A stretch of 56,883 nt of DNA. Origin: a virus (Duplodnaviria > Caudoviricetes). The notes below the pieces were generated by a model. That model was not told the origin of the DNA. It saw only the letters and a program-made list of their open reading frames with translations, and searched no databases. Each line of letters opens with the position of its first letter. Within the stretch, counting starts at the first letter, position 1. Made by a program: the position numbers and the translations under genes. The stretch lies in IMG/VR virus record IMGVR_UViG_3300033156_001123, positions 1 through 56,883 of that record, one strand, 5' to 3'. Below, one piece after another: positions 2,401 through 12,793 of this stretch.

Positions 2401-2768
2401 TAAATAACCTCCCTTAATATCAGTTCACCTTCGAAATAAGTTTCCCAGCCAGGGTCAAACATTGCTTGTAATGGTCTTTCTTCATTGATAATTCTAACAC
2501 TGATGCTATCTGTAGGATCATATTTTAAATCTGGATAAAAAGTTAACTTCGTTAAATTCTGCCACCAGTCTACAAATGTATCTCTATCAGTTCTGCTTAT
2601 TTTTGTTACAGGTACAATATACTTCCTTTTATTGCCCCATTCGTAAATATAGAGCTCACCATCTAAAGTTTTGTGAGCAGTTCTTGGTCTATCTTCAGGT
2701 ACTTCAAAACCTTTAGCAGGAGAAAATTCTATTGAAATAACTCCATCAGTTAATTTCATTACTCTCAT
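2400..2768 (-). CDS. distal tail (Dit-like) protein
   Basis: 122 aa between TMP and hub; HKTLDG...YEWG motif typical of this position. Confidence 0.55.
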   Translation of the reverse strand: MRVMKLTDGVISIEFSPAKGFEVPEDRPRTAHKTLDGELYIYEWGNKRKYIVPVTKISRTDRDTFVDWWQNLTKLTFYPDLKYDPTDSISVRIINEERPLQAMFDPGWETYFEGELILREVI

Positions 2769-5700
2769 TTTGCCACCAGCTCCCCAACTAAGTCTGAGGA
2801 TAAAATACCAGATCTTGCAGCATCTTTAATGGCAGGAATAAATTTTAGCCTGAATATGCGATTTATCTTGCTCTGGTCCAAATTCTCTAAATCAACATTT
2901 GGCAATTCTATAGTTACATTAATATCGCCAAATCTTATAATGTTACCAGCTCTCCCTCCAATCAATTTGACTGGCACTGCTCCTCCTTCTAAAGGAATAA
3001 TTGCTTCTGGTCTTCCTCCTTCTCCAACCAACCCTAAAGTCGGTTTAGTTACTACTGCTCCTCCTTGTGCTTCTAATGGTTCAAACCCACCTTTTGCTAT
3101 TCCTCCTTTTTCAAAACCAATAATCCCTGCTACGAGCCTGCCAATTCCTGCAACCACTGCTCCAGCAGCTGCCAGACCTAAAATCGGACCTACAAAAGGA
3201 ATTCCTGCAAAAGCTGCATACGCTGCAGCTGCTGCTTTTGCTGTGAACAAAGCTATCTCTTTCATAACAGTGAAAACAGTTTTAGCCAGCATAACTCCCA
3301 TAGCCCACACGTGTTTAGCTACAATTGCTAAAATAGATTTCTCTTCTACTTTCTGTCTGGTCTTTGCACCTGCAATTGTAGCAAGAGTCATCATTACTTG
3401 TTTAGCTATCCATTCACTTGCCATTTCAGCAACACTGCGGTAAAAAGATGTTTTAATTTCTTCCCAAATGCCATTCCAAAAATTCTCCCAGGTAGTCATA
3501 CCTCTCATCCATTCTTCAACTACAGGCACAAATCTACCTTTCATATCCTCATAGAATCCTGCAAACATTTCTCTCCAAGTAATAGTACTTTCGAGAATTT
3601 CGTCCGTAACTTCTCCAAGAGCAGTCTTTACCGGTGCAGTAATTTTCTCCCACTCATAGAATTTTTCGTAAAATTTACTTACACTACCTCTGGCTCTGTC
3701 CATTGCTCCAATTAAAGAATCTGTTGCTACAATCGTCGTACTAATTCCATATGCAGGTGCCTCTGGAAATTTACGAGACATCAAATCGTACATCTCACCC
3801 CAAGATTGTCTCGCTCCTTCCATCCAGTAAATAAACTCAGAGCCTTTTTCACTGACATCGGATAAGCCATAAGCTGGTGCTTCAGGAAACTTTCGGAAGA
3901 AAAGATTATAAAACTCCTGCCACGCTAATCGTGATTTTTCAATATAAGTAGCAAAATCTTTAGCCAATTCAATAAGCGTTGAAATTCCATACGCAGGAGC
4001 TTCTGGGAATTTGCGGGATAAAACATCGTAAAATTCTTTCCAAGCCATTCTTGCCTTCTCAATATGGACAGCGAAATCCTTAGATTTCTCTGTAATATCT
4101 GGAATACCGTATGCAGGAGGCTCAGGAAACTTTCTGGACATAAGATTATACATCTCCTGATATTCTTGCCTTGCTCCTTCGATATATACAGCAAAGTCTT
4201 TGGATAATTCTATGATGTTTGAAATACCATATGCTGGAGGTTCAGGAAACTTACGAGATAGAATATTATAGAACTCTTGCCAGCCTAATCTCGCACTTTC
4301 TACCCAAATAGCAAAATCTTTAAGTTTTTCTGTAACATCTGAGATACCATAAGCTGGAGATTCGGGAAACTTTCTGGACATAAGGTCGTACATTTCTTGA
4401 TATTTTCCTCTTGCTTCTTCAATATATATAGCAAAGTCCTTAGCCAAAGCCATAGTTGTGCTAAAACCATAAGCTGGAGCATCAGGGAATTTACGAGACA
4501 TTAGGTCATACATTTCTTGATATGCCAGCCTTGCTTCCTCAATATAATCAGCGAAGTCTTTAGACAGAAGTATAAGTCCAGCAAGCCCATAAGCTGGAGT
4601 TTCTGGAAATTTACGAAGTAATAGTTCATAGAACATCTGCCATTCTACTCTCGATTCTTCCACCCATTCAGCAAGTTCTAATCCTATTATTGACTCTATA
4701 TTCTCGTCTAATTTCACAAGTTCTTTATTCAAATTGCTCAATTCTCTCTTAAATTTTCCAGATTCTTCTGCTCCTTGACCAAATTCATCAGCAAGCTGGC
4801 TTGTGCTATTGGCAGCATCTAAAGCTGATTTTGAAGTTTCATTTATATTTTTTTCAACTTCTTCTAAGCGATTTTCAAGAATTGTAAAAGCTTTATCAAC
4901 ACTTACTCCCACCATTTTAGGTAACTTTTCAGTTACTGGCTTGAAGCCCTCTAATAAAGGAGTCCAATCAGGAGGTTCAATCTTCTTAAACCAGTTTTTA
5001 GGATTTAATTTCTTTATTACCCAGCCGACCCAAGATGTAATATTTTTGCCTAAATTAGTAAAAACAGTTAGCACTGCCTTACCAGCATCAATGAATATAT
5101 TTGGGAAATTACTTATAAACCAATCAATAAAATTCCCAATATTGATACCAACTGATTTAAAACTTTCAATTATTATTCTACCAAACCATTCAATATATGC
5201 ACCTGCTTTCTGAACAGACTTTCTAAAAGTTTCACTCCTCTGATATAACAGATACAAACCAGCAGCTGCTGCTGTAAGTCCTAATATAATCCACCCGCCA
5301 GGTCCCATTCCAGCAAAAGCTGTCATCAATGCTGGACCTAACTTTGATAAAACTGAAATAAAGAAACCTATTGCCCCTACAGTTTTCATTATTGTAGGAG
5401 CCATCATTAATAAAGACCCACCAACTGCTAATAACCCTCCCAGTACTATAGCAAATTTAATAAGCGCTGAAGTAAGCTTAGGATGAGCTTTTGTCCACTC
5501 TCCAATGCTTCTAACTATGTCCTTTATATCTGCAATCATAGGAGTCAAAGTAGGTAATAATACATCACCAAGGACTAATTGCACTTCTTCAACTGCTGAT
5601 TTTAACAATTTTAAGGTGCCTTGCCATGTATTAATTTGTCTTTCTGCCATCTCAGCAGCTTTATTCGTCCCTGTAATTCTATCCTCAAGTTCTTTAAGAG

Positions 5701-6631
5701 CTTCAGAGCCAGTAGCTAACATCCTTACCATTGCAGGTCCAGCTCTTAATCCAAACAATTTCATCGTTTGTTCAGTAGTAATACCAGCTTTGTTTAATGT
5801 TTCAATTATTTCAGTAAATTTGTGTGTAGTTGGTGACACATCTTCGATAGTAAGATTTAATTCAGCTAAAGTATCTCTCATTTCTTTGGTAGGATCCATT
5901 AATCTACTTAAAGCTCCTCTGAGAGCAGTACCTGCCATACTGGCATCTATACCAGCATTATATAATACACCTAATGCAGCTGCTGTTTCTTCCAAAGTAT
6001 AACCTAAACCAGCTGCCACAGGGCCGACATACTGCATAGAAATTCCTAATCTGTCCATTGTAGCTTGTGAAGAGCCTATTATTGCTGCAAAAGTATTGGC
6101 TACCTTAGTAGCATCTTCCGCTTGCATTTCAAATTGATTTAAAGTAGAAACTACTATTCTTGTTGTTTCAGCTAAATCATATTGTGTAGCAGCAGCGAGA
6201 TCCAAAGTTCCTGGTAAAGCCTTCATCATTTTATTAACATCATACCCAGCACTGGCCAAGTAATACATAGCATCAGCTGCTTCAGAAGCAGAGAATACAG
6301 TATCAGCTCCCATTTTCCTGGCAAATTCGCTCAATTCTTTCATTTGTTCAGAAGTAGCTCCAGCGACAGCACCAACATTTGCCATAGAATATTCAAATTT
6401 CCCAGCAGTATGTAAAGCAAATCCTAAACCAGCGACAATTGCTCCACCAGCTACAGTAGCTGCAAGCCCCATACTTCTGAAGTGCTGCTCGTTCTTTTTA
6501 ACGAAATCCCTTAGTCCTTTAGATTTTATTTCAGCTTGTTCGACTTTACTGCTATAATCTCTTAAAGGTTTACTGTAAGCATCAATAATTGCTAACTTGA
6601 GACCAAAACCTTCTCCAATATTAACAGGCAA
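2765..6631 (-). CDS. tail tape measure protein (TP901-type core)
   Basis: 1288 aa; FSASEAADAMYYLASAG, GIDASMAGTALR core; hydrophobic segments; C-terminal GEGGRPEAIIPL; follows the tail chaperones. Confidence 0.95.
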   Translation of the reverse strand: MPVNIGEGFGLKLAIIDAYSKPLRDYSSKVEQAEIKSKGLRDFVKKNEQHFRSMGLAATVAGGAIVAGLGFALHTAGKFEYSMANVGAVAGATSEQMKELSEFARKMGADTVFSASEAADAMYYLASAGYDVNKMMKALPGTLDLAAATQYDLAETTRIVVSTLNQFEMQAEDATKVANTFAAIIGSSQATMDRLGISMQYVGPVAAGLGYTLEETAAALGVLYNAGIDASMAGTALRGALSRLMDPTKEMRDTLAELNLTIEDVSPTTHKFTEIIETLNKAGITTEQTMKLFGLRAGPAMVRMLATGSEALKELEDRITGTNKAAEMAERQINTWQGTLKLLKSAVEEVQLVLGDVLLPTLTPMIADIKDIVRSIGEWTKAHPKLTSALIKFAIVLGGLLAVGGSLLMMAPTIMKTVGAIGFFISVLSKLGPALMTAFAGMGPGGWIILGLTAAAAGLYLLYQRSETFRKSVQKAGAYIEWFGRIIIESFKSVGINIGNFIDWFISNFPNIFIDAGKAVLTVFTNLGKNITSWVGWVIKKLNPKNWFKKIEPPDWTPLLEGFKPVTEKLPKMVGVSVDKAFTILENRLEEVEKNINETSKSALDAANSTSQLADEFGQGAEESGKFKRELSNLNKELVKLDENIESIIGLELAEWVEESRVEWQMFYELLLRKFPETPAYGLAGLILLSKDFADYIEEARLAYQEMYDLMSRKFPDAPAYGFSTTMALAKDFAIYIEEARGKYQEMYDLMSRKFPESPAYGISDVTEKLKDFAIWVESARLGWQEFYNILSRKFPEPPAYGISNIIELSKDFAVYIEGARQEYQEMYNLMSRKFPEPPAYGIPDITEKSKDFAVHIEKARMAWKEFYDVLSRKFPEAPAYGISTLIELAKDFATYIEKSRLAWQEFYNLFFRKFPEAPAYGLSDVSEKGSEFIYWMEGARQSWGEMYDLMSRKFPEAPAYGISTTIVATDSLIGAMDRARGSVSKFYEKFYEWEKITAPVKTALGEVTDEILESTITWREMFAGFYEDMKGRFVPVVEEWMRGMTTWENFWNGIWEEIKTSFYRSVAEMASEWIAKQVMMTLATIAGAKTRQKVEEKSILAIVAKHVWAMGVMLAKTVFTVMKEIALFTAKAAAAAYAAFAGIPFVGPILGLAAAGAVVAGIGRLVAGIIGFEKGGIAKGGFEPLEAQGGAVVTKPTLGLVGEGGRPEAIIPLEGGAVPVKLIGGRAGNIIRFGDINVTIELPNVDLENLDQSKINRIFRLKFIPAIKDAARSGILSSDLVGELVAK
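3726..4685 (-). repeat. eight tandem 120-bp (40-aa) coding repeats in the tape measure protein
   Basis: RKFPExPAYG recurs with an exact 120-nt period (PAYG codons near 3747, 3867 ... 4587). Confidence 0.95.
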
Positions 6632-6874
6632 CTAAAACCTCCCCCTCCTATATAATCCTTTGCTCCTTTCCTCAGCTTCTCTTAACTTCTGTTCTAACCT
6701 CATTTCTTTTTCTCTTTTCTTTCTTTCTTCTTCTAACTTTTCATTTCTCCACTTGTCATAATATTTCCATTCTACAAATTCCTTGGCACTCATTCGCATC
6801 CCTAATTCAGCTCGGGTCATGCCTAATCTTTCAGCTAATACAAAAGAGTAAATAAAATCTTCATCTGTCTCAAA
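6632..6874 (-). CDS. tail assembly chaperone C-terminal extension (lambda gpT-like), reached by +1 frameshift
   Basis: +1 frame is open from the chaperone stop: FETDEDFIYSFVLAERLGMTRAELGMRMSAKEFVEW, a typical gpT-like motif that starts upstream of the listed ATG. Confidence 0.8.
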   Translation of the reverse strand, partial: FETDEDFIYSFVLAERLGMTRAELGMRMSAKEFVEWKYYDKWRNEKLEEERKKREKEMRLEQKLREAEERSKGLYRRGRF

Positions 6875-6884
6875 ACCTACTCCT
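6870..6884 (-). promoter_or_regulatory. prfB-like +1 programmed frameshift cassette AGG AGU AGG UUU UGA
   Basis: internal SD, 3-nt spacer, then UUU-U overlapping UGA; the +1 frame carries the conserved gpT-like sequence. Confidence 0.7.
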
Positions 6885-7250
6885 TAAAGCTTCCTCCATT
6901 TCAGCTCCAAAACCAGAGAGCTCAGTTATTTTTCTTGTGATTCTATCCAGCACTGAAGCATTCTTTTCTCTCAATTTTTTAATGTCAGCTTTAGTGAATA
7001 CTTGGTTACCATCTTTATCCCTAATACCAACTATCAATACGGCCATTTGAAAATTTTCTCCTCTTTTTAGCTCATCTTCATCTCCAGTTCTGGCTGCTTC
7101 TAATGCTTCGCTTCTTTCTTGCTGAGTGAGTGATTTAATCCAAATAGTCACTCCCCATTCCTCAATTTTCATTGGCTCAAATTTAATGTCTTTTGCTGTG
7201 AAAATTTTCTCTCTAAGTTCCTCAGCTGTTAAATCTTTTTTTGCTGTCAT
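6870..7250 (-). CDS. tail assembly chaperone (gpG-like)
   Basis: IEEWGVTIWIKSLT...DKDGNQVFT...LREKNASVLDRI...ELSG; lies between tail tube and TMP. Confidence 0.85.
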   Translation of the reverse strand: MTAKKDLTAEELREKIFTAKDIKFEPMKIEEWGVTIWIKSLTQQERSEALEAARTGDEDELKRGENFQMAVLIVGIRDKDGNQVFTKADIKKLREKNASVLDRITRKITELSGFGAEMEEALRSRF

Positions 7251-7578: not shown

Positions 7579-7977
7579 CTAAAAACCAGATTCGTGTAAC
7601 TGTCCAACTCCAGTCAAAGTCCCCGAAATATCAATAGCACCATCCACAGGCACATCAAGATCAAAATCACACCAAGCATCACCATAAAAATATTTGGTCA
7701 AATCACTTTTTTCTGGATACAGATACACATCTTTTTCAGTAGTAGAATTCACCACATCATAAAACTTACCCACATTAGCTCTATCATAATAAGCAGAGAA
7801 ACTACCAGACCAGCTACCCTGACCTCTCACTGAATCTTTATATTCTTCTCCCTGCTGTGGTGTATCAACTATATCTCTGGAAAAACTTAGGCTCCAACCA
7901 TGTAGCTGATCTACCACTCCTATCCCTTCAATAATCAAATACCCACCTTTTCCGTGAACTTTAGAAATTTTAACCAC
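7579..7977 (-). CDS. major tail tube protein (possible AUU start at 7968)
   Basis: SKVHGK...WSLSFSRDIVDT...GQGSWSGSFSAYYD...GTLTGVGQL siphoviral tube pattern; upstream of the chaperones. Confidence 0.85.
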   Translation of the reverse strand: MVKISKVHGKGGYLIIEGIGVVDQLHGWSLSFSRDIVDTPQQGEEYKDSVRGQGSWSGSFSAYYDRANVGKFYDVVNSTTEKDVYLYPEKSDLTKYFYGDAWCDFDLDVPVDGAIDISGTLTGVGQLHESGF

Positions 7978-8008
7978 CCCCTTTTAATTTTTGAAACATT
8001 TTATTCTT

Positions 8009-9170
8009 CTATAATTTAACAAGTTGTAAAAGCTTTTCAGCTCTATTTAAATATGTGTGTTTCTTAATTTTTCTGTTACCATTTTGAGCAATTTTTTTTC
8101 TTTCTTCTTCATGCTCCAAATAATAAAATATCTTTTCAGCTGCATCTTTAGCGTCTTTATAAATCACAAGATCCTCACCAGGAACAAACAAGTCATCAAT
8201 TTCTTTCCTATAATCAGTCATTAAGAAACCACCAGCAGCCAATATTTCATATACTCTGGGATTTAAGCTGTAAGGCTCTATCTCTTCAACTCGGCTTTCT
8301 CCAGTTTTAATATTCCTTACTATTTTTTTGGACTCATTAACTCTAAAATGATTCAATACTATTTTTGAATTAGCATAGTACCGAATAACTTCATACTTGC
8401 TCAATGTAATTGGAATATAAAAAGGTTCCAACTGTGGACACAGTCCCTTATCCATAGAAGGGAACACTCCAAAAATTTTAAAAGCTACTTTCCCTTTAAT
8501 ATAAGAGACCAAGTCTGTCAAGAATTCAATTCTTCCAGGTACCTCAGATCCTACAAAAAACAAATCTGGGGTATATACAATTTGTTCCCATCTTTTCAGC
8601 TCAGTTTTCCATTCATAGTGTGAATTATAACCTACTGGCAAATAATAACTATTCGGATTGAATCTACGATATATTTTTTCACAAGCTTTATCACAAGTAA
8701 ACACATAATCATATAATGGTGCTCTTTGAATTTCATGGGCAATATTATAAGGTGATTCTGTAAACCAGATAACCTGTTTCATATGAGGAAATCTCTCCTT
8801 AATCAAAGCTGGCACCCAAGCTGGTATATATTGACCTGTGATATAAATTATCAACTTTGGCCAAAGATGAACAACTGTAGTTATTAATCCTTGGCAAGCT
8901 GCCGAGTAAACATCCTTCCAAGCAACCCTATCATCAGTGCCTTTTAAAAAATATTGCACTGCTTGACGATAAAACTTCAGTCTATCCTTTAGCTCAAAAG
9001 GATATACTTCCTGTCCCATCATTTTAAGAGCATCTCCCAATCCATAATAAACATCCACAGTACTAATACCATGGCCTTTTTCAGCCAGGCTCAACAAGCA
9101 AGATTTTAAATTTCTTGCTGGCTGAGCCTGGTTTGAACGCCTCCTTTTTGCTATTTTTTATCATTGACAT
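8009..9170 (-). CDS. CgeB-like GT-B glycosyltransferase; 29-codon N-terminus (9170..9084) joined to the main ORF across a 10-nt gap
   Basis: C-terminal FVGS...YANSKIVLN...NPRVYEILAAGGFLMTD...HTYLNRA; the first-strand motif KILLVEPG lies in a separate upstream frame with an AAGGAG RBS. Confidence 0.8.
9074..9131 (-). promoter_or_regulatory. candidate translational-bypass element: 18-bp hairpin, take-off GGC, UGA, AAAA, landing GGC
   Basis: CCAGGCTCA/TGAGCCTGG and AGCAAGA/TCTTGCT arms; matched GGC codons at 9086-9084 and 9076-9074 flank the stop. Confidence 0.6.
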
Positions 9171-9849
9171 AATTCTTACTCCTTTGTCTTGCAATATTAG
9201 ACAAAACCATTCTCCAAAATTCTCTATCTCTTCTTATGCTTAAATGGCATTGTGTGCACAAACTGATAAGATTTTCAGGTGAATTATTCTCAGGTTGCTC
9301 ATCTATATGATGAACTTCTAATTGTCTTATACATTCTCTCTCTGGTACTCCACAAATCTGGCACTTATAATCATCCCGCTGTCGAATAATAGCTCTCAAT
9401 TGCTTAAATTCTGGTGGATAAGGCTTATAACTCCTGCCATCTATCCAAGATGGATTTAGTTCTCCACAAAATCTACCTTTTAAGGATTCAGAGATTTTCT
9501 TCCTTACTTCTTCTCGACAAGCTGGATTATATTTTTTCATCCATTCTGCTTGTAAAGCAATTCTTCTATCAGTCTCCTTATTTTTCCCTTTATTCCAAGG
9601 AGCTTTAATCTTCCGACGATCAATTTTAGGCTTTTTAATTTTATATCCTGATTTTCCTTTATTCCAAGGGATATGACCTTTCTGAAAACCATTCTTATTT
9701 CCCAATAAAGCTTTACTCATCTTCTCTCTGGTCTCTGCTGTAGGTCTTTTTCCTCTATGTGATTCACTTAACTTTTGTCTAATTTCAGCTGCTCTCTCTT
9801 TGCCATATTCTTGTTCTAAGCTAATTCCTTTCCGATGAGACTTTCTCAT
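9151..9849 (-). CDS. free-standing HNH homing endonuclease with NUMOD3 repeats
   Basis: ETREKMS/PWNKG repeats; RDDYKCQICG...LEVHHID...NNSPENLISLCTQCH. Confidence 0.9.
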   Translation of the reverse strand: MRKSHRKGISLEQEYGKERAAEIRQKLSESHRGKRPTAETREKMSKALLGNKNGFQKGHIPWNKGKSGYKIKKPKIDRRKIKAPWNKGKNKETDRRIALQAEWMKKYNPACREEVRKKISESLKGRFCGELNPSWIDGRSYKPYPPEFKQLRAIIRQRDDYKCQICGVPERECIRQLEVHHIDEQPENNSPENLISLCTQCHLSIRRDREFWRMVLSNIARQRSKNYVNDKK

Positions 9850-9860
9850 TTTATCCTCCT

Positions 9861-10499
9861 TTAATATCCATCAACCTTTCTACCCATATAAGCGAATGCT
9901 AATTGGCCCACCTTATTTCTCCATCTCCTCCAACCGTACCTCACAAGTCTGGACACAATACATTCAAAATGTTTATCAACTATATCTCTAAACCAGCTGT
10001 ATGTTAAACTGTGTTTGTGTGCTGGATGTGGGTTAATTATACTATTATTTATACAACAATGAACAGCTAAAAAACCCCCTGGTCTCAATATTCTCCACAT
10101 TTCTTTGATAGCTTTAGCTGGATTTTCAAAATGGTCTAAAGCGTTCATACACAGAACCAAATGAGCAAAATTATTCTCCAGTGGCAAATTCTCTGCTACC
10201 CCTTGAATCCAAACTATAGATGTATCTCTGGGAATCACTTTAACATATTCATCAATTAAAGGGTCAACAGCAACTTTCATAATAGCTTCTGGTATATATA
10301 CTAAAGCTGAAATCGGTCCGCTACCTACATCAATGATTATTTTATTGTCCAATCTCAACAAGTTAACCCCCATTTCTTCCAGCATTTTTGGATACCTAAC
10401 TTTTTCTCTTTCAAGTTTTTCCCATCTTTTTTCTTCGTCTGATAATAGCCAAGTTGATAATTCAGCTTTCAATACTTCATTCATTTGGCACACTCCCAA
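9861..10499 (-). CDS. class I SAM-dependent methyltransferase (probable start ATG 10484)
   Basis: IIDVGSGP, GVAENLP, NALDHF, EMWRILRPGG. Confidence 0.9.
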   Translation of the reverse strand: MGVCQMNEVLKAELSTWLLSDEEKRWEKLEREKVRYPKMLEEMGVNLLRLDNKIIIDVGSGPISALVYIPEAIMKVAVDPLIDEYVKVIPRDTSIVWIQGVAENLPLENNFAHLVLCMNALDHFENPAKAIKEMWRILRPGGFLAVHCCINNSIINPHPAHKHSLTYSWFRDIVDKHFECIVSRLVRYGWRRWRNKVGQLAFAYMGRKVDGY

Positions 10500-11244
10500 A
10501 AATTAAAGGCTTTCTGCTAACCCCTACTTCTTTACCTTTCCACCTCATGCTTGTAAAAGGTTCACCAAACCCAAAATTGGTCACTAAGTCTATTTTTGGT
10601 AAAGCTATCCAATATCCTTCTTTTTTCAAGTGCATCTTATATTCATAGTCTTCTCCAAATGCCCACGAGCCTTCAATAAAATCTCCATATTTTTCATATA
10701 TCTCTCTCCTAAAAGCCATTGCTGAGCCAACCTGATCTTCATGAATTTCAATAGTCAAACCATCTCTGGTAACTTCTTTAATCAACATTTTTCTCCAATC
10801 ACAAGGGTCATACCAATATTTGAACAATCCCAAAACTCCAATCTCTGGAAATGTTTCAAGAATTGCCACAGCTTTTTCAAGCCACAAGGGTTTAAATTCC
10901 AAATCAGAATCCAACTTGAACAAATATTTTCCGTGAGCACAGTGAAATCCTTTATTAATTGATGCTCCTACCCCTTGATTCTTGCCTGCATTTAGAATTA
11001 AACAGCTTAATTCTTTAGCTTTATATAACCTTAAAAGAAATTCCACATTCTCCTCTTCCATCGAACCATCATCTACTATTATGAGTTCGTACGGATATTT
11101 GGTATTTTTCTTCAATGAAGCAATTGTAGTATGAAGAAATTGTGGCCTGTTAAAAGAAAGAACTACCAAACTTGCTAATGGTTTACCTCCTACTGTAATG
11201 TATGGAATCCTATTTTCTTTATCATCTAAAAATTTCTTTTGCAT
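10477..11244 (-). CDS. GT2 glycosyltransferase
   Basis: SLVVLSFNR, IIVDDGS, KLDSD, GEDYEY. Confidence 0.9.
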   Translation of the reverse strand: MQKKFLDDKENRIPYITVGGKPLASLVVLSFNRPQFLHTTIASLKKNTKYPYELIIVDDGSMEEENVEFLLRLYKAKELSCLILNAGKNQGVGASINKGFHCAHGKYLFKLDSDLEFKPLWLEKAVAILETFPEIGVLGLFKYWYDPCDWRKMLIKEVTRDGLTIEIHEDQVGSAMAFRREIYEKYGDFIEGSWAFGEDYEYKMHLKKEGYWIALPKIDLVTNFGFGEPFTSMRWKGKEVGVSRKPLIFGSVPNE

Positions 11245-11765
11245 TACTTAACTGCCATCAAAGTTGTAAACAAACCTTCGCCTTGAACAAAATTCTTTAA
11301 TACTTCAAATCTGGCTCTAACTCCGTAAGCTTCTCTGTCTCTGTTATCAGCTGAAGGCAGCCACCATGACCATAAATCTGGATGAATTAATCTTTTGTGG
11401 TCAGGATGTGCATATGCATATTTAGATGTCCACAGAGGATTAATCATTTCTAATATGCCTTTTCTTTTCAACACTCTCCAAATTTCTTCCATAACAAAAA
11501 TCAAATTGTTCACATGCTCCATAAAATGCGAAGCATAAATAAAATCTATAGTGCAATCTCCAAAAGGCAAACCATGTTTATCCACATCCCTAACAATATC
11601 AACTCCAGGACATTTATAATTATCAATTCCTATAAAACCAGGAGGAATTTGCCTTTTTCTATCTCCACAGCCAAGATCAACTTTTACGCAATTTGGATTC
11701 GTTAATGGTAAAGCTATTGAATCACTACTTGTTAATCTCAACTTAACTTGAATACTTTCAATCAT
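11244..11765 (-). CDS. small class I SAM-dependent methyltransferase
   Basis: VDLGCG, LPFGDCTID, SHFMEH, EEIWRVLK, HPDHKR. Confidence 0.85.
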   Translation of the reverse strand: MIESIQVKLRLTSSDSIALPLTNPNCVKVDLGCGDRKRQIPPGFIGIDNYKCPGVDIVRDVDKHGLPFGDCTIDFIYASHFMEHVNNLIFVMEEIWRVLKRKGILEMINPLWTSKYAYAHPDHKRLIHPDLWSWWLPSADNRDREAYGVRARFEVLKNFVQGEGLFTTLMAVK

Positions 11766-12793
11766 AGTATGCTACAAACCCTTTTTCTATTTTTGTGCGC
11801 CCAATCCCAAATTATGTCTATTACTTGTTTTGGATTGAGTTTTGGCTGCCAATACTTCGAGACTTTCCTGATATCACTTACATATACCAAGTGGTCAGCT
11901 GGCCTCCAATTTTGATACACTACTCTATATGGCCGTTGGTCTAAATTAGATAGATATTCTAATACTTCAATCAGTGATACAGTATTATTAGGTCCACCAC
12001 CAACATTATACACTTGGCCTTTGTGTACATCTATATCTTCAATCTCTTTCAAAAACAAATCAGCCAAATCTCCAACATATAACACATCCCTAACTTGCTT
12101 ACCATCACCATAAATATTTATCACAGCATCAACCATTTTAGCATAAACAAACCAAGATACCCACCCTTGTTCTTCTTTACCAAGCTGCCTTTCCCCAGCT
12201 ATACAGCTCATCCTATTCACAACAGTAGGAACACCATAAGTATGATAATATTCTTGGCAATATCTATCTCCTATATATTTAGAACAACCATATGGGCTAT
12301 AAGCGGCTCTACCTCCAGAGTCAACTGGAAAACCTTCAGGGATACCTAAAATAAATTTTTTGTCTATCCATTTTCTCTTATTGTCAAAGATCTTAGATTG
12401 AATTTCATTTACTTCACAAGAATAAACTTTATTAGTGCTACAATAAATTACTGGCATTTTACCATTATTCTTGGCCAATTCAAGCACATTTAAAGTACCT
12501 AAAGCATTTACTTCAAAGTCATAAATGGGATCTTCAATTGAAGCTGGAACTCCTGGCTGTGCTGCTGTGTGAATAATGGCATCAACATTTTTAATTCTGG
12601 ACAGCTGGTCATAATTCCTTACATCTCCCTTTATAAAAACAAAATTCTGATTTTTGCTCAATTCCTCTAAGTTGCTTTCTGAGCCTTTTCTGCACAAATT
12701 ATCAAAAGCAACCACATTGTACCCTCTACTTAAAGCTCTCAATGCCACATTTGTACCAATAAAACCACAGCCACCAGTAATTAATATTAGCAT
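11762..12793 (-). CDS. CDP-paratose 2-epimerase (tyvelose epimerase)-like SDR
   Basis: GGCGFIG, STNKVY, SPYGCSK, NRMSCIAGERQ, QGWVSWF, GKQVRDVLY. Confidence 0.8.
   Translation of the reverse strand: MLILITGGCGFIGTNVALRALSRGYNVVAFDNLCRKGSESNLEELSKNQNFVFIKGDVRNYDQLSRIKNVDAIIHTAAQPGVPASIEDPIYDFEVNALGTLNVLELAKNNGKMPVIYCSTNKVYSCEVNEIQSKIFDNKRKWIDKKFILGIPEGFPVDSGGRAAYSPYGCSKYIGDRYCQEYYHTYGVPTVVNRMSCIAGERQLGKEEQGWVSWFVYAKMVDAVINIYGDGKQVRDVLYVGDLADLFLKEIEDIDVHKGQVYNVGGGPNNTVSLIEVLEYLSNLDQRPYRVVYQNWRPADHLVYVSDIRKVSKYWQPKLNPKQVIDIIWDWAHKNRKRVCSIL

What the first reader, a model, noticed from the sequence alone, without database searches (positions are those of the whole stretch)
9074..9184. Candidate programmed translational bypass (10-nt ribosome hop) in the CgeB-like glycosyltransferase
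Seen: AAGGAG lies 8 nt before ATG 9170, which opens MSMIKNSKKEAFKPGSASKKFKILLVEPG and then hits UGA. The mRNA reads CCU GGC UGA AAAA GGC CAU, so an identical GGC lies 10 nt downstream in the GT frame. Hopping gives KILLVEPG-HGISTVDVYYGL (383 aa) and restores the N-terminal beta strand that the listed ORF lacks. The listed TTG start has no RBS and is buried in an 18-bp stem (9131-9085, one mismatch, one G-U). The leader codons are complementary to the ILLVEPG codons and the stem ends in the take-off codon. CAGCCAG/CUGGCUG offers an alternative pairing over the stop, and an SD-like AAGGAGG precedes the stem. Established: T4 gene 60 bypassing uses matched Gly codons, a stop and stem-loops; as I recall, a short hop has been proposed for a Streptomyces phage terminase. 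Inference: a new natural bypass that meters one glycosylation step.
Basis: partly seen in the sequence, partly recalled or inferred. Interest (0 to 1): 0.93.

Follow-up and report, generated by a model that had tools for sequence, protein, structure and literature searches.

The report
Ribosome-hop gap in phage glycosyltransferase gene
A phage sugar-transferase gene is broken by ten extra bases just downstream of a selfish nuclease gene, and eight relatives carry similar short breaks at the same spot yet keep the gene intact, which points to ribosomes hopping over the break as they do in the classic phage T4 case.

Summary
On the minus strand, a 29-codon leader (ATG 9170) ends CCU GGC UGA. A second GGC lies 10 nt on, in the frame of a GT-B glycosyltransferase. 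An 18-bp hairpin (9131-9085) ends inside the take-off GGC.

Comparison turns this single case into a family:
- A 96%-identical phage (L003) lacks both the HNH gene and the 10 nt. There, 33 nt stand in place of window 9846-9077.
- Eight other homologous loci (53-64% identical) carry gaps of 4, 5, 5, 7, 11, 18, 21 and 22 nt in the same beta1-alpha1 loop.
- In 9 of 9 gapped loci a stop codon directly follows the last homologous codon, and a lineage-specific hairpin abuts the take-off codon.
- Three gaps cannot be crossed by a single frameshift.
- The downstream ORFs are intact, with dN/dS 0.04-0.09 between pairs that are both gapped.
- 5 of 5 loci with the HNH gene are gapped.
- An independent contig also holds the 10 nt.

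Best reading (about 0.72): a programmed translational bypass cassette carried by an HNH homing endonuclease. It is analogous to T4 mobA/gene 60 but sits in another gene and has much shorter gaps. There is no experimental proof. The idea that it "meters glycosylation" has no support.

The parts
9151..9849 (-). HNH homing-endonuclease ORF (232 aa, NUMOD3 + HNH). It uses the RBS and ATG that serve the glycosyltransferase in the cassette-free relative L003.
   Evidence: Pfam HNH 2e-06, NUMOD3 5.7e-06. Homologous HNH ORFs sit at the same position in L005, L008, L090 and, split in two, L092. The shared RBS+ATG is seen, and the flank alignment ends at 9847.
9077..9846 (-). Mobile cassette: HNH gene, new RBS, N-terminal leader, recoded beta1 codons, take-off codon, stop and gap. 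Its 770 nt replace 33 nt of L003.
   Evidence: blastn of window against L003: flanks 95.5% (12000-9847) and 95.9% (9076-6000) identical, with nothing alignable between them. MAFFT places a clean 10-nt gap.
9179..9184 (-). Shine-Dalgarno AAGGAG, 8 nt before the leader ATG.
   Evidence: Sequence.
9084..9170 (-). Leader ORF of 29 codons. It ends in the beta1 strand (KILLV), Pro, and the take-off Gly codon GGC (9086-9084).
   Evidence: The beta1 residues align with uninterrupted homologs. Strand beta1 is residues 6-10 in the AF2 model of the L003 protein.
9085..9131 (-). 18-bp hairpin. The 5' arm lies in the leader codons. The 3' arm is the ILLVEPG codons and ends inside the take-off codon.
   Evidence: Energy -30.7 kcal/mol, z -5.0. 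Own-arm duplex is -33.1 against a mean of -12.9 for other clades' 5' regions. Strain variant X1 changes C9131 to U, which keeps a G-U pair.
9140..9146 (-). Internal SD-like AAGGAGG just 5' of the hairpin, with no start codon behind it here. In the L006/L087 and L089-92 clades an SD at this place serves an AUG at the base of the hairpin.
9081..9083 (-). UGA stop in the A site when GGC 9086-9084 is in the P site.
   Evidence: A stop directly follows the last homologous codon in 9 of 9 gapped loci.
9074..9083 (-). The 10 nt absent from relatives (UGA AAAA GGC). The proposed landing codon is GGC 9076-9074.
   Evidence: Alignment with L003. Table of take-off and landing codons.
8009..9073 (-). Body of the GT-B (GT4-like, Pfam Glyco_trans_1_2/DUF3880) glycosyltransferase, from resume codon CAT 9073 to stop TAG 8011-8009.
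   Evidence: Pfam 9.2e-28. The ORF is intact, and dN/dS against L003 is 0.037. AF2 model of the 98%-identical L003 protein has pLDDT 94.6. Foldseek top hits are TreT, MshA and BshA.

Best explanation
The glycosyltransferase (GT) is made by programmed translational bypassing, and the bypass signal is part of a mobile HNH homing-endonuclease cassette.

Shown:
- An HNH gene, a new leader and a recoded copy of the first GT codons have replaced 33 nt of the gene start. The junction with the resident gene carries 10 extra nt.

Inferred mechanism:
1. Ribosomes start at ATG 9170, melt the 18-bp hairpin and translate 29 codons.
2. They pause with peptidyl-tRNA(Gly) on GGC 9086-9084 and UGA in the A site.
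3. Most of the 3' arm of the hairpin is then inside the mRNA exit channel, while its partner arm is already outside. Re-zipping pulls the mRNA forward.
4. The tRNA leaves GGC and re-pairs with the identical GGC 10 nt downstream.
5. Decoding resumes at CAT 9073, giving a 383-aa enzyme with the same beta1-loop-alpha1 sequence as gap-free homologs.

Inferred purpose: the extra bases and the dense synonymous changes beside them make the carrier DNA a poor target for its own endonuclease. Bypassing keeps the interrupted gene usable.
For: 1. Product fit. Ten of 19 aligned homologs are uninterrupted and have no residues where a +1 reading would put E-K-G. The hop gives their sequence exactly.

2. Recurrence. 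Of 14 distinct close-family loci, 9 are gapped in the same loop. The shifts are 10, 5, 4, 5, 7, 18, 22, 11 and 21 nt.

3. Stop codon. In 9 of 9 gapped loci a stop (6 UGA, 2 UAG, 1 UAA) directly follows the last homologous codon.

4. Codon matching. [quoted passage not shown] They are GGC/GGA in L092. In L006, L087 and L008 they match at two of three positions, and in L089 at one of three.

5. A single frameshift cannot do it everywhere. L089 and L092 are in frame with two stops inside the gap, and L090 has a GT-frame UGA inside the gap.

6. Not pseudogenes. All 9 gapped loci keep an intact ORF of 352-357 or 366 codons. dN/dS between pairs that are both gapped is 0.043-0.093 at dS of 1.2 or more. 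For window against L003 it is 0.037.

7. No alternative start. Six of 9 have no ATG, GTG or TTG in the GT frame between the last stop and the conserved ISTxDV motif. The beta1 residues are conserved in the other frame (one search list).

8. Hairpin.
- It is present in 9 of 9 gapped loci and abuts or includes the take-off codon.
- Own-arm duplexes are -18 to -33 kcal/mol, against cross-clade means of -9 to -14.
- Uninterrupted L003, L004 and L094 have none.
- In the L006/L087/L007 clade, the gapped members carry a 9-nt leader insertion that creates the lower stem.
- Two compensatory pairs occur within the L089-92 clade.

9. Link to HNH. Five of 5 loci with an HNH ORF are gapped, and 0 of 5 uninterrupted loci have one (one-sided Fisher p = 0.044).

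10. Cassette edge. The gap is the cassette's 3' edge. Six of the next 21 nt differ from L003, against about 4% elsewhere.

11. The gap is real.
- Contig X1 carries it.
- Contigs X2 and X4 carry the gap-free allele.
- L008 and L009 are identical contigs from two samples.

12. Precedent.
- The T4 MobA element carries a bypass cassette that blocks self-nicking. It is found in every phage with the endonuclease and in several that have lost it (discussion section read).
- Pairing of exiting mRNA has been proposed as the forward driver of bypassing (passages).
- Upstream refolding hairpins stimulate +1 frameshifting (abstract in the listing).
Against: - No protein, RNA or ribosome data exist. Every sequence is a metagenomic assembly and the host is unknown.
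- Landing codons are imperfect in 5 of 9 loci: L006 and L087 CGT to AGT, L008 CAC to CCC, L092 GGC to GGA, L089 GGT to TGC.
- For the window, L006 and L008 a plain +1 shift is possible, adding 3, 1 and 2 residues. For L005, L087 and L091 a +2 or -1 shift is possible.
- L084 has the long leader and a strong hairpin (-18.9 kcal/mol, z -4.4) but no gap, and L007 has a weak inner hairpin. The hairpin may therefore have another role, or these loci may have lost a gap.
- I noticed no T4-style mini-SD and no A-site stem-loop in the 7-nt gap. I judged this by eye and ran no scan.
- If translation starts at the internal AUG of L006/L087/L089-92, the nascent chain is only 18 residues long, which favours drop-off.
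- The samples are small and phylogenetically dependent. The tree needs only 3-5 changes of state.
- RNAalifold on all 10 sequences found only 4 common pairs, because the registers differ.
- The pulling role of the hairpin and the immunity role of the gap are inferences.
Confidence: 0.72

Rival explanations
1. Programmed +1 ribosomal frameshifting at GGC UGA A, stimulated by the A-site stop and by the upstream refolding hairpin. The enzyme would carry three extra residues (E-K-G) in the beta1-alpha1 loop. Other family members would use whatever shift their gap needs.
For: - The GT frame is +1 from the leader frame, and P0002 is an open 386-aa reading.
- A stop in the A site and an upstream hairpin are known +1 stimulators (abstract in the listing).
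- L006 and L008 also fit a +1 shift.
Against: - None of the 10 uninterrupted homologs has residues in those three columns.
- tRNA(Gly) on GGC would re-pair poorly with GCU, whereas a perfect GGC lies 10 nt on.
- There is no SD close upstream as in prfB (by eye).
- L005, L087 and L091 need +2 or -1.
- L089, L090 and L092 cannot be rescued by any single shift.
- One mechanism for all nine is therefore more economical.
Confidence: 0.12
2. Split gene. The leader is a separate small peptide, either regulatory or supplying beta1 in trans. The GT body would be started independently, by re-initiation after the stop or at TTG 9097.
For: - TTG 9097 and TTG 9094 exist in the GT frame.
- T4-type endonuclease insertions do split proteins that then reassemble (discussion section).
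- The codon after landing is AUU, AUA or AUC in 7 of 9 loci.
Against: - Six of 9 loci have no canonical start between the last GT-frame stop and the ISTxDV motif.
- I saw no SD before the resume codons (by eye).
- The window resumes at CAU and L008 at GGG.
- TTG 9097 lies inside the stem and would replace beta1 by unrelated residues.
- Beta1 is the first core strand of the N-terminal Rossmann-like domain.
Confidence: 0.07
3. Inactivated gene. The HNH cassette, or sloppy repair of its cut, left a frameshifting scar, and the GT is simply dead or dispensable in carriers.
For: - The gap sits exactly at the cassette edge.
- Short direct repeats such as GGC...GGC can arise from microhomology repair (general knowledge).
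- L092's HNH is itself broken into two ORFs.
Against: - All 9 gapped loci keep a full-length open body.
- dN/dS is 0.04-0.09 between pairs that are both gapped and have diverged to dS of 1.2 or more.
- A stop follows the last homologous codon in 9 of 9, and a hairpin abuts it in 9 of 9. Neither is expected of random scars.
- The beta1 residues are conserved in the leader frame.
Confidence: 0.06
4. Assembly or sequencing artefact: the 10 nt are not in the phage DNA.
For: The window is a single metagenomic contig. No raw reads of its own sample could be laid.
Against: - A separate public contig (X1, depth 19, 5 substitutions) holds the same 10 nt.
- Gaps recur in eight other loci.
- L008 and L009 are identical contigs from two samples.
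- A 10-nt heteropolymer is not a typical sequencing error.
Confidence: 0.01

Closest known systems
Phage T4 gene 60 / MobA bypass cassette (Manning & Atkins, bioRxiv 10.1101/2022.08.31.505936, abstract and discussion read; Bonocora et al. 2011 known only through that text and recall)
   Same: - Matched Gly take-off and landing codons, with a stop codon in the A site.
[quoted passage not shown]
- The longer gaps are AU-rich.
- The cassette lies next to a homing endonuclease.
- The gap is present in all endonuclease carriers and in some loci that have lost the endonuclease.
- A diverged, recoded region flanks the gap.
   Different: - The host gene is a GT4-like glycosyltransferase, not the topoisomerase II large subunit.
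- Gaps are 4-22 nt, not about 50.
- There is no room for an A-site take-off stem-loop, and I saw no mini-SD (by eye).
- The hairpin abuts or includes the take-off codon, rather than lying 9 nt upstream, and it is the one conserved RNA feature. In the T4 family the 5' stem-loop is the least conserved.
- The endonuclease lies upstream of the whole gene and does not split it.
- No sequence homology to the T4 cassette was shown.
Streptomyces phage phiHau3 terminase bypass at rare UUA codons (PMC10732093, passages read)
   Same: A short programmed hop in a phage structural or assembly gene. A junction peptide was confirmed by mass spectrometry in E. coli, which shows that short natural hops are real.
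   Different: It is triggered by a hungry sense codon, not a stop. That paper's main text never mentions an endonuclease ('homing endonuclease' 0 and 'HNH' 0 occurrences). The gene is different.
Low-level stop-hopping in E. coli (+5/+6 hops; Weiss et al. 1987, seen only as a reference, content recalled)
   Same: Peptidyl-tRNA hops over a stop codon to a matching codon a few bases on. L005's GGA UAG GA has exactly this +5 geometry.
   Different: Those events are unprogrammed and occur at about the 1% level in test constructs. Here the sites are conserved, carry a strong hairpin and sit in genes under selection.
prfB (RF2) +1 programmed frameshift (textbook knowledge, recalled)
   Same: Recoding at a codon followed by UGA, where the poorly decoded stop gives time for the P-site tRNA to move.
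   Different: prfB uses an SD 3 nt upstream and a CUU slip of one base. Here there is no nearby SD, the family's gaps include in-frame ones with two stops, and the shifts range from 4 to 22 nt.
Upstream refolding hairpins that push ribosomes forward (PMC3639245, PMC6321510; abstracts in the listing only) and the 'exiting-mRNA driver' model (bioRxiv 10.1101/2024.12.09.627546, passages read)
   Same: A hairpin that re-forms directly behind the ribosome favours forward movement of the mRNA.
   Different: Those are engineered or T4 cases. Here a natural family appears to rely on such a hairpin as its main signal. This is inferred, not tested.
Mitochondrial 'byp' elements of Magnusiomyces capitatus (mentioned; details recalled)
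   Same: Many mobile inserts that are bypassed in translation. They tolerate imperfectly matched take-off and landing codons, and the 3' parts of the gaps are AU-rich.
   Different: They are 27-55 nt inserts in a eukaryotic organelle (sizes recalled), with no endonuclease partner described in what I read.

Membership tests
Programmed translational bypassing (general) | Two ORFs that together encode one conserved protein, separated by non-coding bases that relatives lack | tested here: met
   Leader plus body match uninterrupted homologs with no extra residues. The 10 nt are absent from L003.
Programmed translational bypassing (general) | Matched take-off and landing codons for one peptidyl-tRNA | tested here: met
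   Window: GGC to GGC. Across the family: 4 of 9 identical, 1 of 9 GGC/GGA, 3 of 9 matched at two positions, 1 of 9 at one position.
Programmed translational bypassing (general) | Slowly decoded A-site codon (stop or hungry codon) next to the take-off codon | tested here: met
   UGA 9083-9081. A stop is present in 9 of 9 gapped loci.
Programmed translational bypassing (general) | A single polypeptide spanning the gap is actually produced | not testable with these tools
   No proteomic or reporter data are available. No run listed as holding the stretch is recorded as RNA.
T4 gene 60 / MobA cassette | Insertion in the topoisomerase II large-subunit gene, and homology to the T4 cassette | tested here: not met
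   The host gene is Glyco_trans_1_2/DUF3880. The HNH protein search of phage records listed no T4-like phage among its 15 rows or its organism tally.
T4 gene 60 / MobA cassette | Take-off stem-loop formed by the gap in the A site | tested here: not met
   Only 7 nt (UGAAAAA) lie between the codons. The fold shows them unpaired or in a 3-bp outer helix.
T4 gene 60 / MobA cassette | Mini-SD about 6 nt 5' of the landing codon | tested here: not met
   The window gap UGAAAAA holds no GAG, GGA or AGG (by eye). The other gaps were inspected by eye only.
T4 gene 60 / MobA cassette | [quoted passage not shown] | tested here: met
   18 bp, -30.7 kcal/mol, z -5.0. Present in 9 of 9 gapped loci.
T4 gene 60 / MobA cassette | Adjacent homing endonuclease, with the gap protecting against self-cleavage | tested here: inconclusive
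   Adjacency is met: 5 of 5 HNH loci are gapped. Cleavage and protection cannot be tested here.
T4 gene 60 / MobA cassette | Nascent-peptide signal needed for bypass | not testable with these tools
   Gapped loci all have leaders of 18-48 or more codons, often basic. No function can be assigned from sequence.
prfB-type +1 frameshift site | Slippery P-site codon that re-pairs in +1, with an SD about 3 nt upstream | tested here: not met
   GGC to GCU is a poor match. The nearest SD-like motif ends 53 nt upstream. In-frame gaps with two stops occur in L089 and L092.
GT-B glycosyltransferase (GT4-like / CgeB-like) | Two Rossmann-like domains, matching Pfam Glyco_trans_1_2 | tested here: met
   Pfam 9.2e-28. 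AF2 pLDDT 94.6. Foldseek hits TreT, MshA and BshA at E about 1e-13. Donor and acceptor are unknown.
HNH homing endonuclease (free-standing) | HNH catalytic motif plus a DNA-binding module, present or absent between near-identical genomes | tested here: met
   HNH and NUMOD3. Present in the window and absent in the 96%-identical L003. Nuclease activity was not tested.

The most novel reading that the evidence does not exclude
This is a second, independently evolved family of translational bypass cassettes carried by a homing endonuclease. Hops are very short (4-22 nt). The main signals are a stop codon and a strong hairpin that re-zips directly behind the ribosome and drags the mRNA forward, with no A-site stem-loop and no mini-SD. 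If so, 'endonuclease plus bypass gap' would be a general way for selfish nucleases to immunise their carrier without killing the host gene. The nine natural variants would also form a ready-made mutant series for testing the exiting-mRNA driver model.
Probability: 0.6. Interest if true: 0.93.

Novelty: new variant of a known kind. Interest (0 to 1): 0.88.

Why it matters
- Natural programmed bypassing is known from very few systems: the T4 gene 60 family, yeast mitochondrial byps and a Streptomyces phage terminase. The 2022 survey of the T4 element still calls its cassette unique.
- A second endonuclease-linked family, in another gene and with much shorter gaps, would show that the T4 arrangement is a recurring evolutionary solution and not a one-off.
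- The family offers a minimal system: stop, hairpin and matched codon. It comes with natural length variants of 4 to 22 nt, some in frame with two stops. These can directly test whether pairing of mRNA leaving the ribosome drives forward sliding.
- It also matters for annotation. Gene callers truncated or mis-started this gene in at least nine database entries. Similar short gaps beside homing endonucleases may be misread elsewhere as pseudogenes.
- Four literature searches found no description of a bypass in a phage glycosyltransferase. Supplementary files of the papers could not be seen.

Tried and rejected
- DNA search of window 7900-9900 against 50,697 phage records found no match.
- The code GGCT=G shifted frame too early, at an upstream GGCT. 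I replaced it with TGAA=E to read the +1 product.
- Stop-codon reassignment was rejected. The frames differ, and all three stops occur at the junctions.
- The phage encodes no tRNA (0 genes) and has no Rfam family at threshold.
- RNAalifold on 10 hairpin regions found only 4 common pairs, because the arms are in different registers. I used single-sequence folds with shuffles, an own-versus-foreign arm duplex matrix and a within-clade alignment instead.
- Sequencing runs: no run listed as holding the stretch is recorded as RNA, and every run holds only a small share of the words. The runs laid were contigs, not raw reads.
- Search for the same trick elsewhere:
  - Of 79 viral loci with related HNH genes, a script found an HNH ORF in 62.
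  - I looked at three candidate 'short ORF then long ORF' junctions: L221, L251 and L266.
  - All three were ordinary separate genes with their own starts.
  - The rest were not examined, so this is not evidence of absence.
- Genome and second viral scans added no new close relatives. L093 lacks the N-terminus and was dropped. L087's upstream region is too short to score for HNH and was left out of the Fisher table.
They are not counted.
Full report
**What is there**

The window is a 56.9-kb viral record. All features below are on the minus strand.
- SD AAGGAG (9184-9179) and ATG 9170 open a 29-codon leader that ends ...KILLVEPG.
- CCT is 9089-9087, GGC 9086-9084 and TGA 9083-9081. Then come AAAA (9080-9077), a second GGC (9076-9074) and CAT (9073).
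- From the second GGC on, the reading frame is that of the 362-aa ORF 8009-9097.
- Pfam assigns this ORF to Glyco_trans_1_2 (9.2e-28) and DUF3880.
- The 699-nt ORF directly upstream (9151-9849) is an HNH endonuclease with a NUMOD3 motif. It overlaps the leader start.
- The predicted hairpin 9131-9085 has 18 bp, one mismatch and one G-U pair. Its energy is -30.7 kcal/mol (z -5.0; 0 of 200 shuffles as good). It ends inside the take-off GGC.

**Homologs show the 10 nt are extra**

A protein search with the +1 reading (P0002) gave 96 hits. I aligned the 19 best.
- Ten are uninterrupted. They read (K/R)-hydrophobic strand-x-P-G-H/A-G/x-I/W-S/A-T-x-D-V, with empty columns where P0002 has E-K-G.
- The other nine start late or oddly, as expected if gene callers met an interruption.
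- The AF2 model of the uninterrupted L003 protein has pLDDT 94.6. L003 is 98% identical to the window's body.
- In that model the strand is beta1 (residues 6-10), the loop is 11-17 and helix 1 is 18-31. The gap therefore lies in the beta1-alpha1 loop of a GT-B fold.
- The nearest solved folds are TreT, MshA and BshA.

**The gap recurs**

Scans of viral, metagenome and genome contigs gave 13 further distinct close-family loci with DNA. I read them in three frames and tabulated them by script.

Five are uninterrupted: L003, L004 (L085 is identical at the junction), L007, L084 and L094.

Nine, including the window, are interrupted in the same loop:

| Locus | Take-off | Stop | Landing | Shift (nt) | Note |
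|---|---|---|---|---|---|
| window | GGC | UGA | GGC | 10 | |
| L005 | GGA | UAG | GGA | 5 | |
| L006 | CGT | UAG | AGT | 4 | |
| L087 | CGT | UAA | AGT | 5 | |
| L008 (= L009) | CAC | UGA | CCC | 7 | |
| L091 | GGT | UGA | GGT | 11 | |
| L090 | GGT | UGA | GGT | 22 | GT-frame UGA inside the gap |
| L092 | GGC | UGA | GGA | 21 | in frame, two stops |
| L089 | GGT | UGA | TGC | 18 | in frame, two stops |

- In all nine, the stop codon directly follows the last codon that aligns with gap-free homologs.
- No single frameshift can carry a ribosome across L089, L090 or L092.
- L006 (4 nt) and L087 (5 nt) are close relatives that need different frame changes to reach the same resume codon.
- Aligned with gap-free L007, the inserted bases are CGTT or CGTTA, and the landing AGT descends from L007's Arg codon AGG.

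**The interrupted genes are alive**

- All nine keep an open body of 352-366 codons reaching the normal C-terminus.
- Nei-Gojobori dN/dS between pairs that are both gapped:
  - L006-L087: 0.052
  - L090-L091: 0.063
  - L090-L092: 0.050
  - L091-L092: 0.093
  - L089-L090: 0.043
  - dS is 1.2-2.3 in these pairs.
- For window against L003, dN/dS is 0.037 at dS 0.21.
- Six of nine have no ATG, GTG or TTG in the GT frame between the last stop and the ISTxDV motif.
- The beta1 residues stay conserved in the leader frame despite many synonymous differences.

The body must therefore be translated, and beta1 still matters.

**The hairpin goes with the gap**

- Each gapped locus folds into a strong hairpin. 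Its 3' arm is the beta1-Pro-Gly(-His) codons, ending at or inside the take-off codon. Its 5' arm lies in the leader.
- z scores are -1.8 to -5.1 on a fixed 75-nt segment and -2.8 to -5.3 on longer segments.
- The arms are lineage-specific. Own-arm duplex energies are -18 to -33 kcal/mol, against means of -9 to -14 for other clades' 5' regions.
- Uninterrupted L003, L004, L094 and L007 have own-arm energies of -9 to -11, no better than background.
- Within the L089-92 clade, 23 pairs are shared, 2 with compensatory changes.
- L006 and L087 differ from gap-free L007 by a 9-nt leader insertion that builds the lower stem.
- Exceptions: L084 has a long leader and a good hairpin (-18.9 kcal/mol, z -4.4) but no gap. 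L007 keeps a weak inner hairpin.
- Counted with a threshold of -18 kcal/mol, 9 of 9 gapped loci and 1 of 5 gap-free loci have the hairpin (one-sided Fisher p = 0.005, ignoring phylogeny).

**The link to the endonuclease**

- In all loci a methyltransferase gene precedes the GT.
- An extra HNH ORF sits between them in the window, L005, L008, L090 and L092. In L092 it is split into two ORFs. All five loci are gapped.
- The HNH proteins are mutually homologous, 35-47% identical to the window's.
- No uninterrupted locus has an HNH ORF. L004 has three small ORFs there, two of which were scanned and had no Pfam hit.
- Gapped L006, L089 and L091 lack it. L087 is too short to tell.
- Window and L003 are 95.5% and 95.9% identical on either side. 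In between, window 9846-9077 (770 nt) stands where L003 has 33 nt.
- The HNH ORF uses the RBS and ATG that start the GT in L003. The gap is the cassette's 3' end.
- The 21 nt after the gap carry 6 mostly synonymous differences.
- On a GT tree the gapped state is scattered: 3 changes are forced by well-supported branches, and 5 are the most parsimonious count.
- Both alleles exist in public vent and sediment data.
  - Contig X1 spans 9048-9278 with the gap. Its C-to-U change at 9131 keeps a G-U pair.
  - Contigs X2 and X4 leave the window at 9067 and 9073 and continue as the L003-type gap-free sequence.

**Mechanism proposed**

Shown: the anatomy, its recurrence, purifying selection, and the hairpin and HNH associations.

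Inferred:
1. The ribosome pauses with tRNA(Gly) on GGC and UGA in the A site.
2. The lower stem cannot re-form because its 3' arm is inside the exit channel.
3. Re-zipping drags the mRNA forward.
4. The tRNA re-pairs at the next GGC, and decoding resumes at CAT.

This follows the model in which pairing of exiting mRNA drives T4 bypassing (passages). It also fits reports that upstream refolding hairpins stimulate +1 frameshifting (abstract in the listing). The purpose of the gap is inferred by analogy with T4. There, the bypass insert prevents MobA from nicking its own carrier, and it is found in every endonuclease carrier and in several that have lost the enzyme (discussion section).

**Comparison with known systems, and novelty**

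- The arrangement works like the T4 mobA/gene 60 cassette but is not a member of that family.
  - The host gene is different.
  - The gaps are 4-22 nt rather than about 50.
  - There is no A-site stem-loop.
  - I saw no mini-SD (by eye).
  - The hairpin abuts the take-off codon.
  - The endonuclease does not split the gene.
- The phiHau3 terminase hop is also short, but it uses a hungry UUA codon and has no endonuclease in the text I searched.
- Four literature searches found no report of bypassing in a phage glycosyltransferase. Supplements were closed, and subscription journals are not covered.

**Verdict**

- Programmed bypass is the best explanation (0.72). For this window alone, a +1 shift is the main rival.
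- The 'metering' idea is unsupported.
- The HNH cassette context is the more important new fact.
- Experimental proof is still lacking.

Noticed in passing
L084:263-334 (metagenome contig, GT on + strand): An uninterrupted homolog that still has a 21-residue N-terminal extension and a strong hairpin (-18.9 kcal/mol, z -4.4) ending on the Pro-Gly codons. It may be a lineage that lost its gap by precise deletion, or the hairpin may have a role of its own.
   Followed up: partly
L092:737-1620: The HNH gene beside this gapped GT is split into two overlapping ORFs: 179 aa with a zinc ribbon, and 133 aa with the HNH C-terminus. The endonuclease appears to be decaying while the gap is kept.
   Followed up: partly
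L124 / L003 (contig QNCD01000002.1, 56,298 nt): The cassette-free twin of this phage is deposited as a scaffold of a Candidatus Omnitrophota MAG from a vent sediment. This is either a host hint or a binning artefact.
   Followed up: no
window 2765-6631 (-): The 1288-aa tape-measure-like protein contains about nine tandem copies of a roughly 40-residue repeat ending ...SRKFPE(A/P)PAYG.
   Followed up: no
window 6632-7250 (-): Two small ORFs (126 aa and 62 aa) lie directly upstream of the tape-measure gene. This is the usual place of the tail-assembly-chaperone -1 frameshift. No slippery site was looked for.
   Followed up: no
window 9861-12793 (-): The GT closes a sugar-modification module: NAD-dependent epimerase/dehydratase, methyltransferase, GT2 glycosyltransferase, then a second methyltransferase. 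The module sits next to the tail genes. Its target (virion or host surface) is unknown.
   Followed up: no
window 9134-9136 with 9081-9083; L089, L090, L092 (alignment A9 columns 1-3 with 61-63): In two unrelated clades a UCA just 5' of the hairpin can pair with the UGA stop, extending the stem over the stop codon.
   Followed up: partly
L004:2390-2957: In this gap-free locus three small ORFs (76, 74 and 39 aa) occupy the slot between the methyltransferase and the GT where other loci carry HNH. The last has a CxxC...C motif. The two larger ORFs had no Pfam hit and the 39-aa ORF was not scanned.
   Followed up: partly
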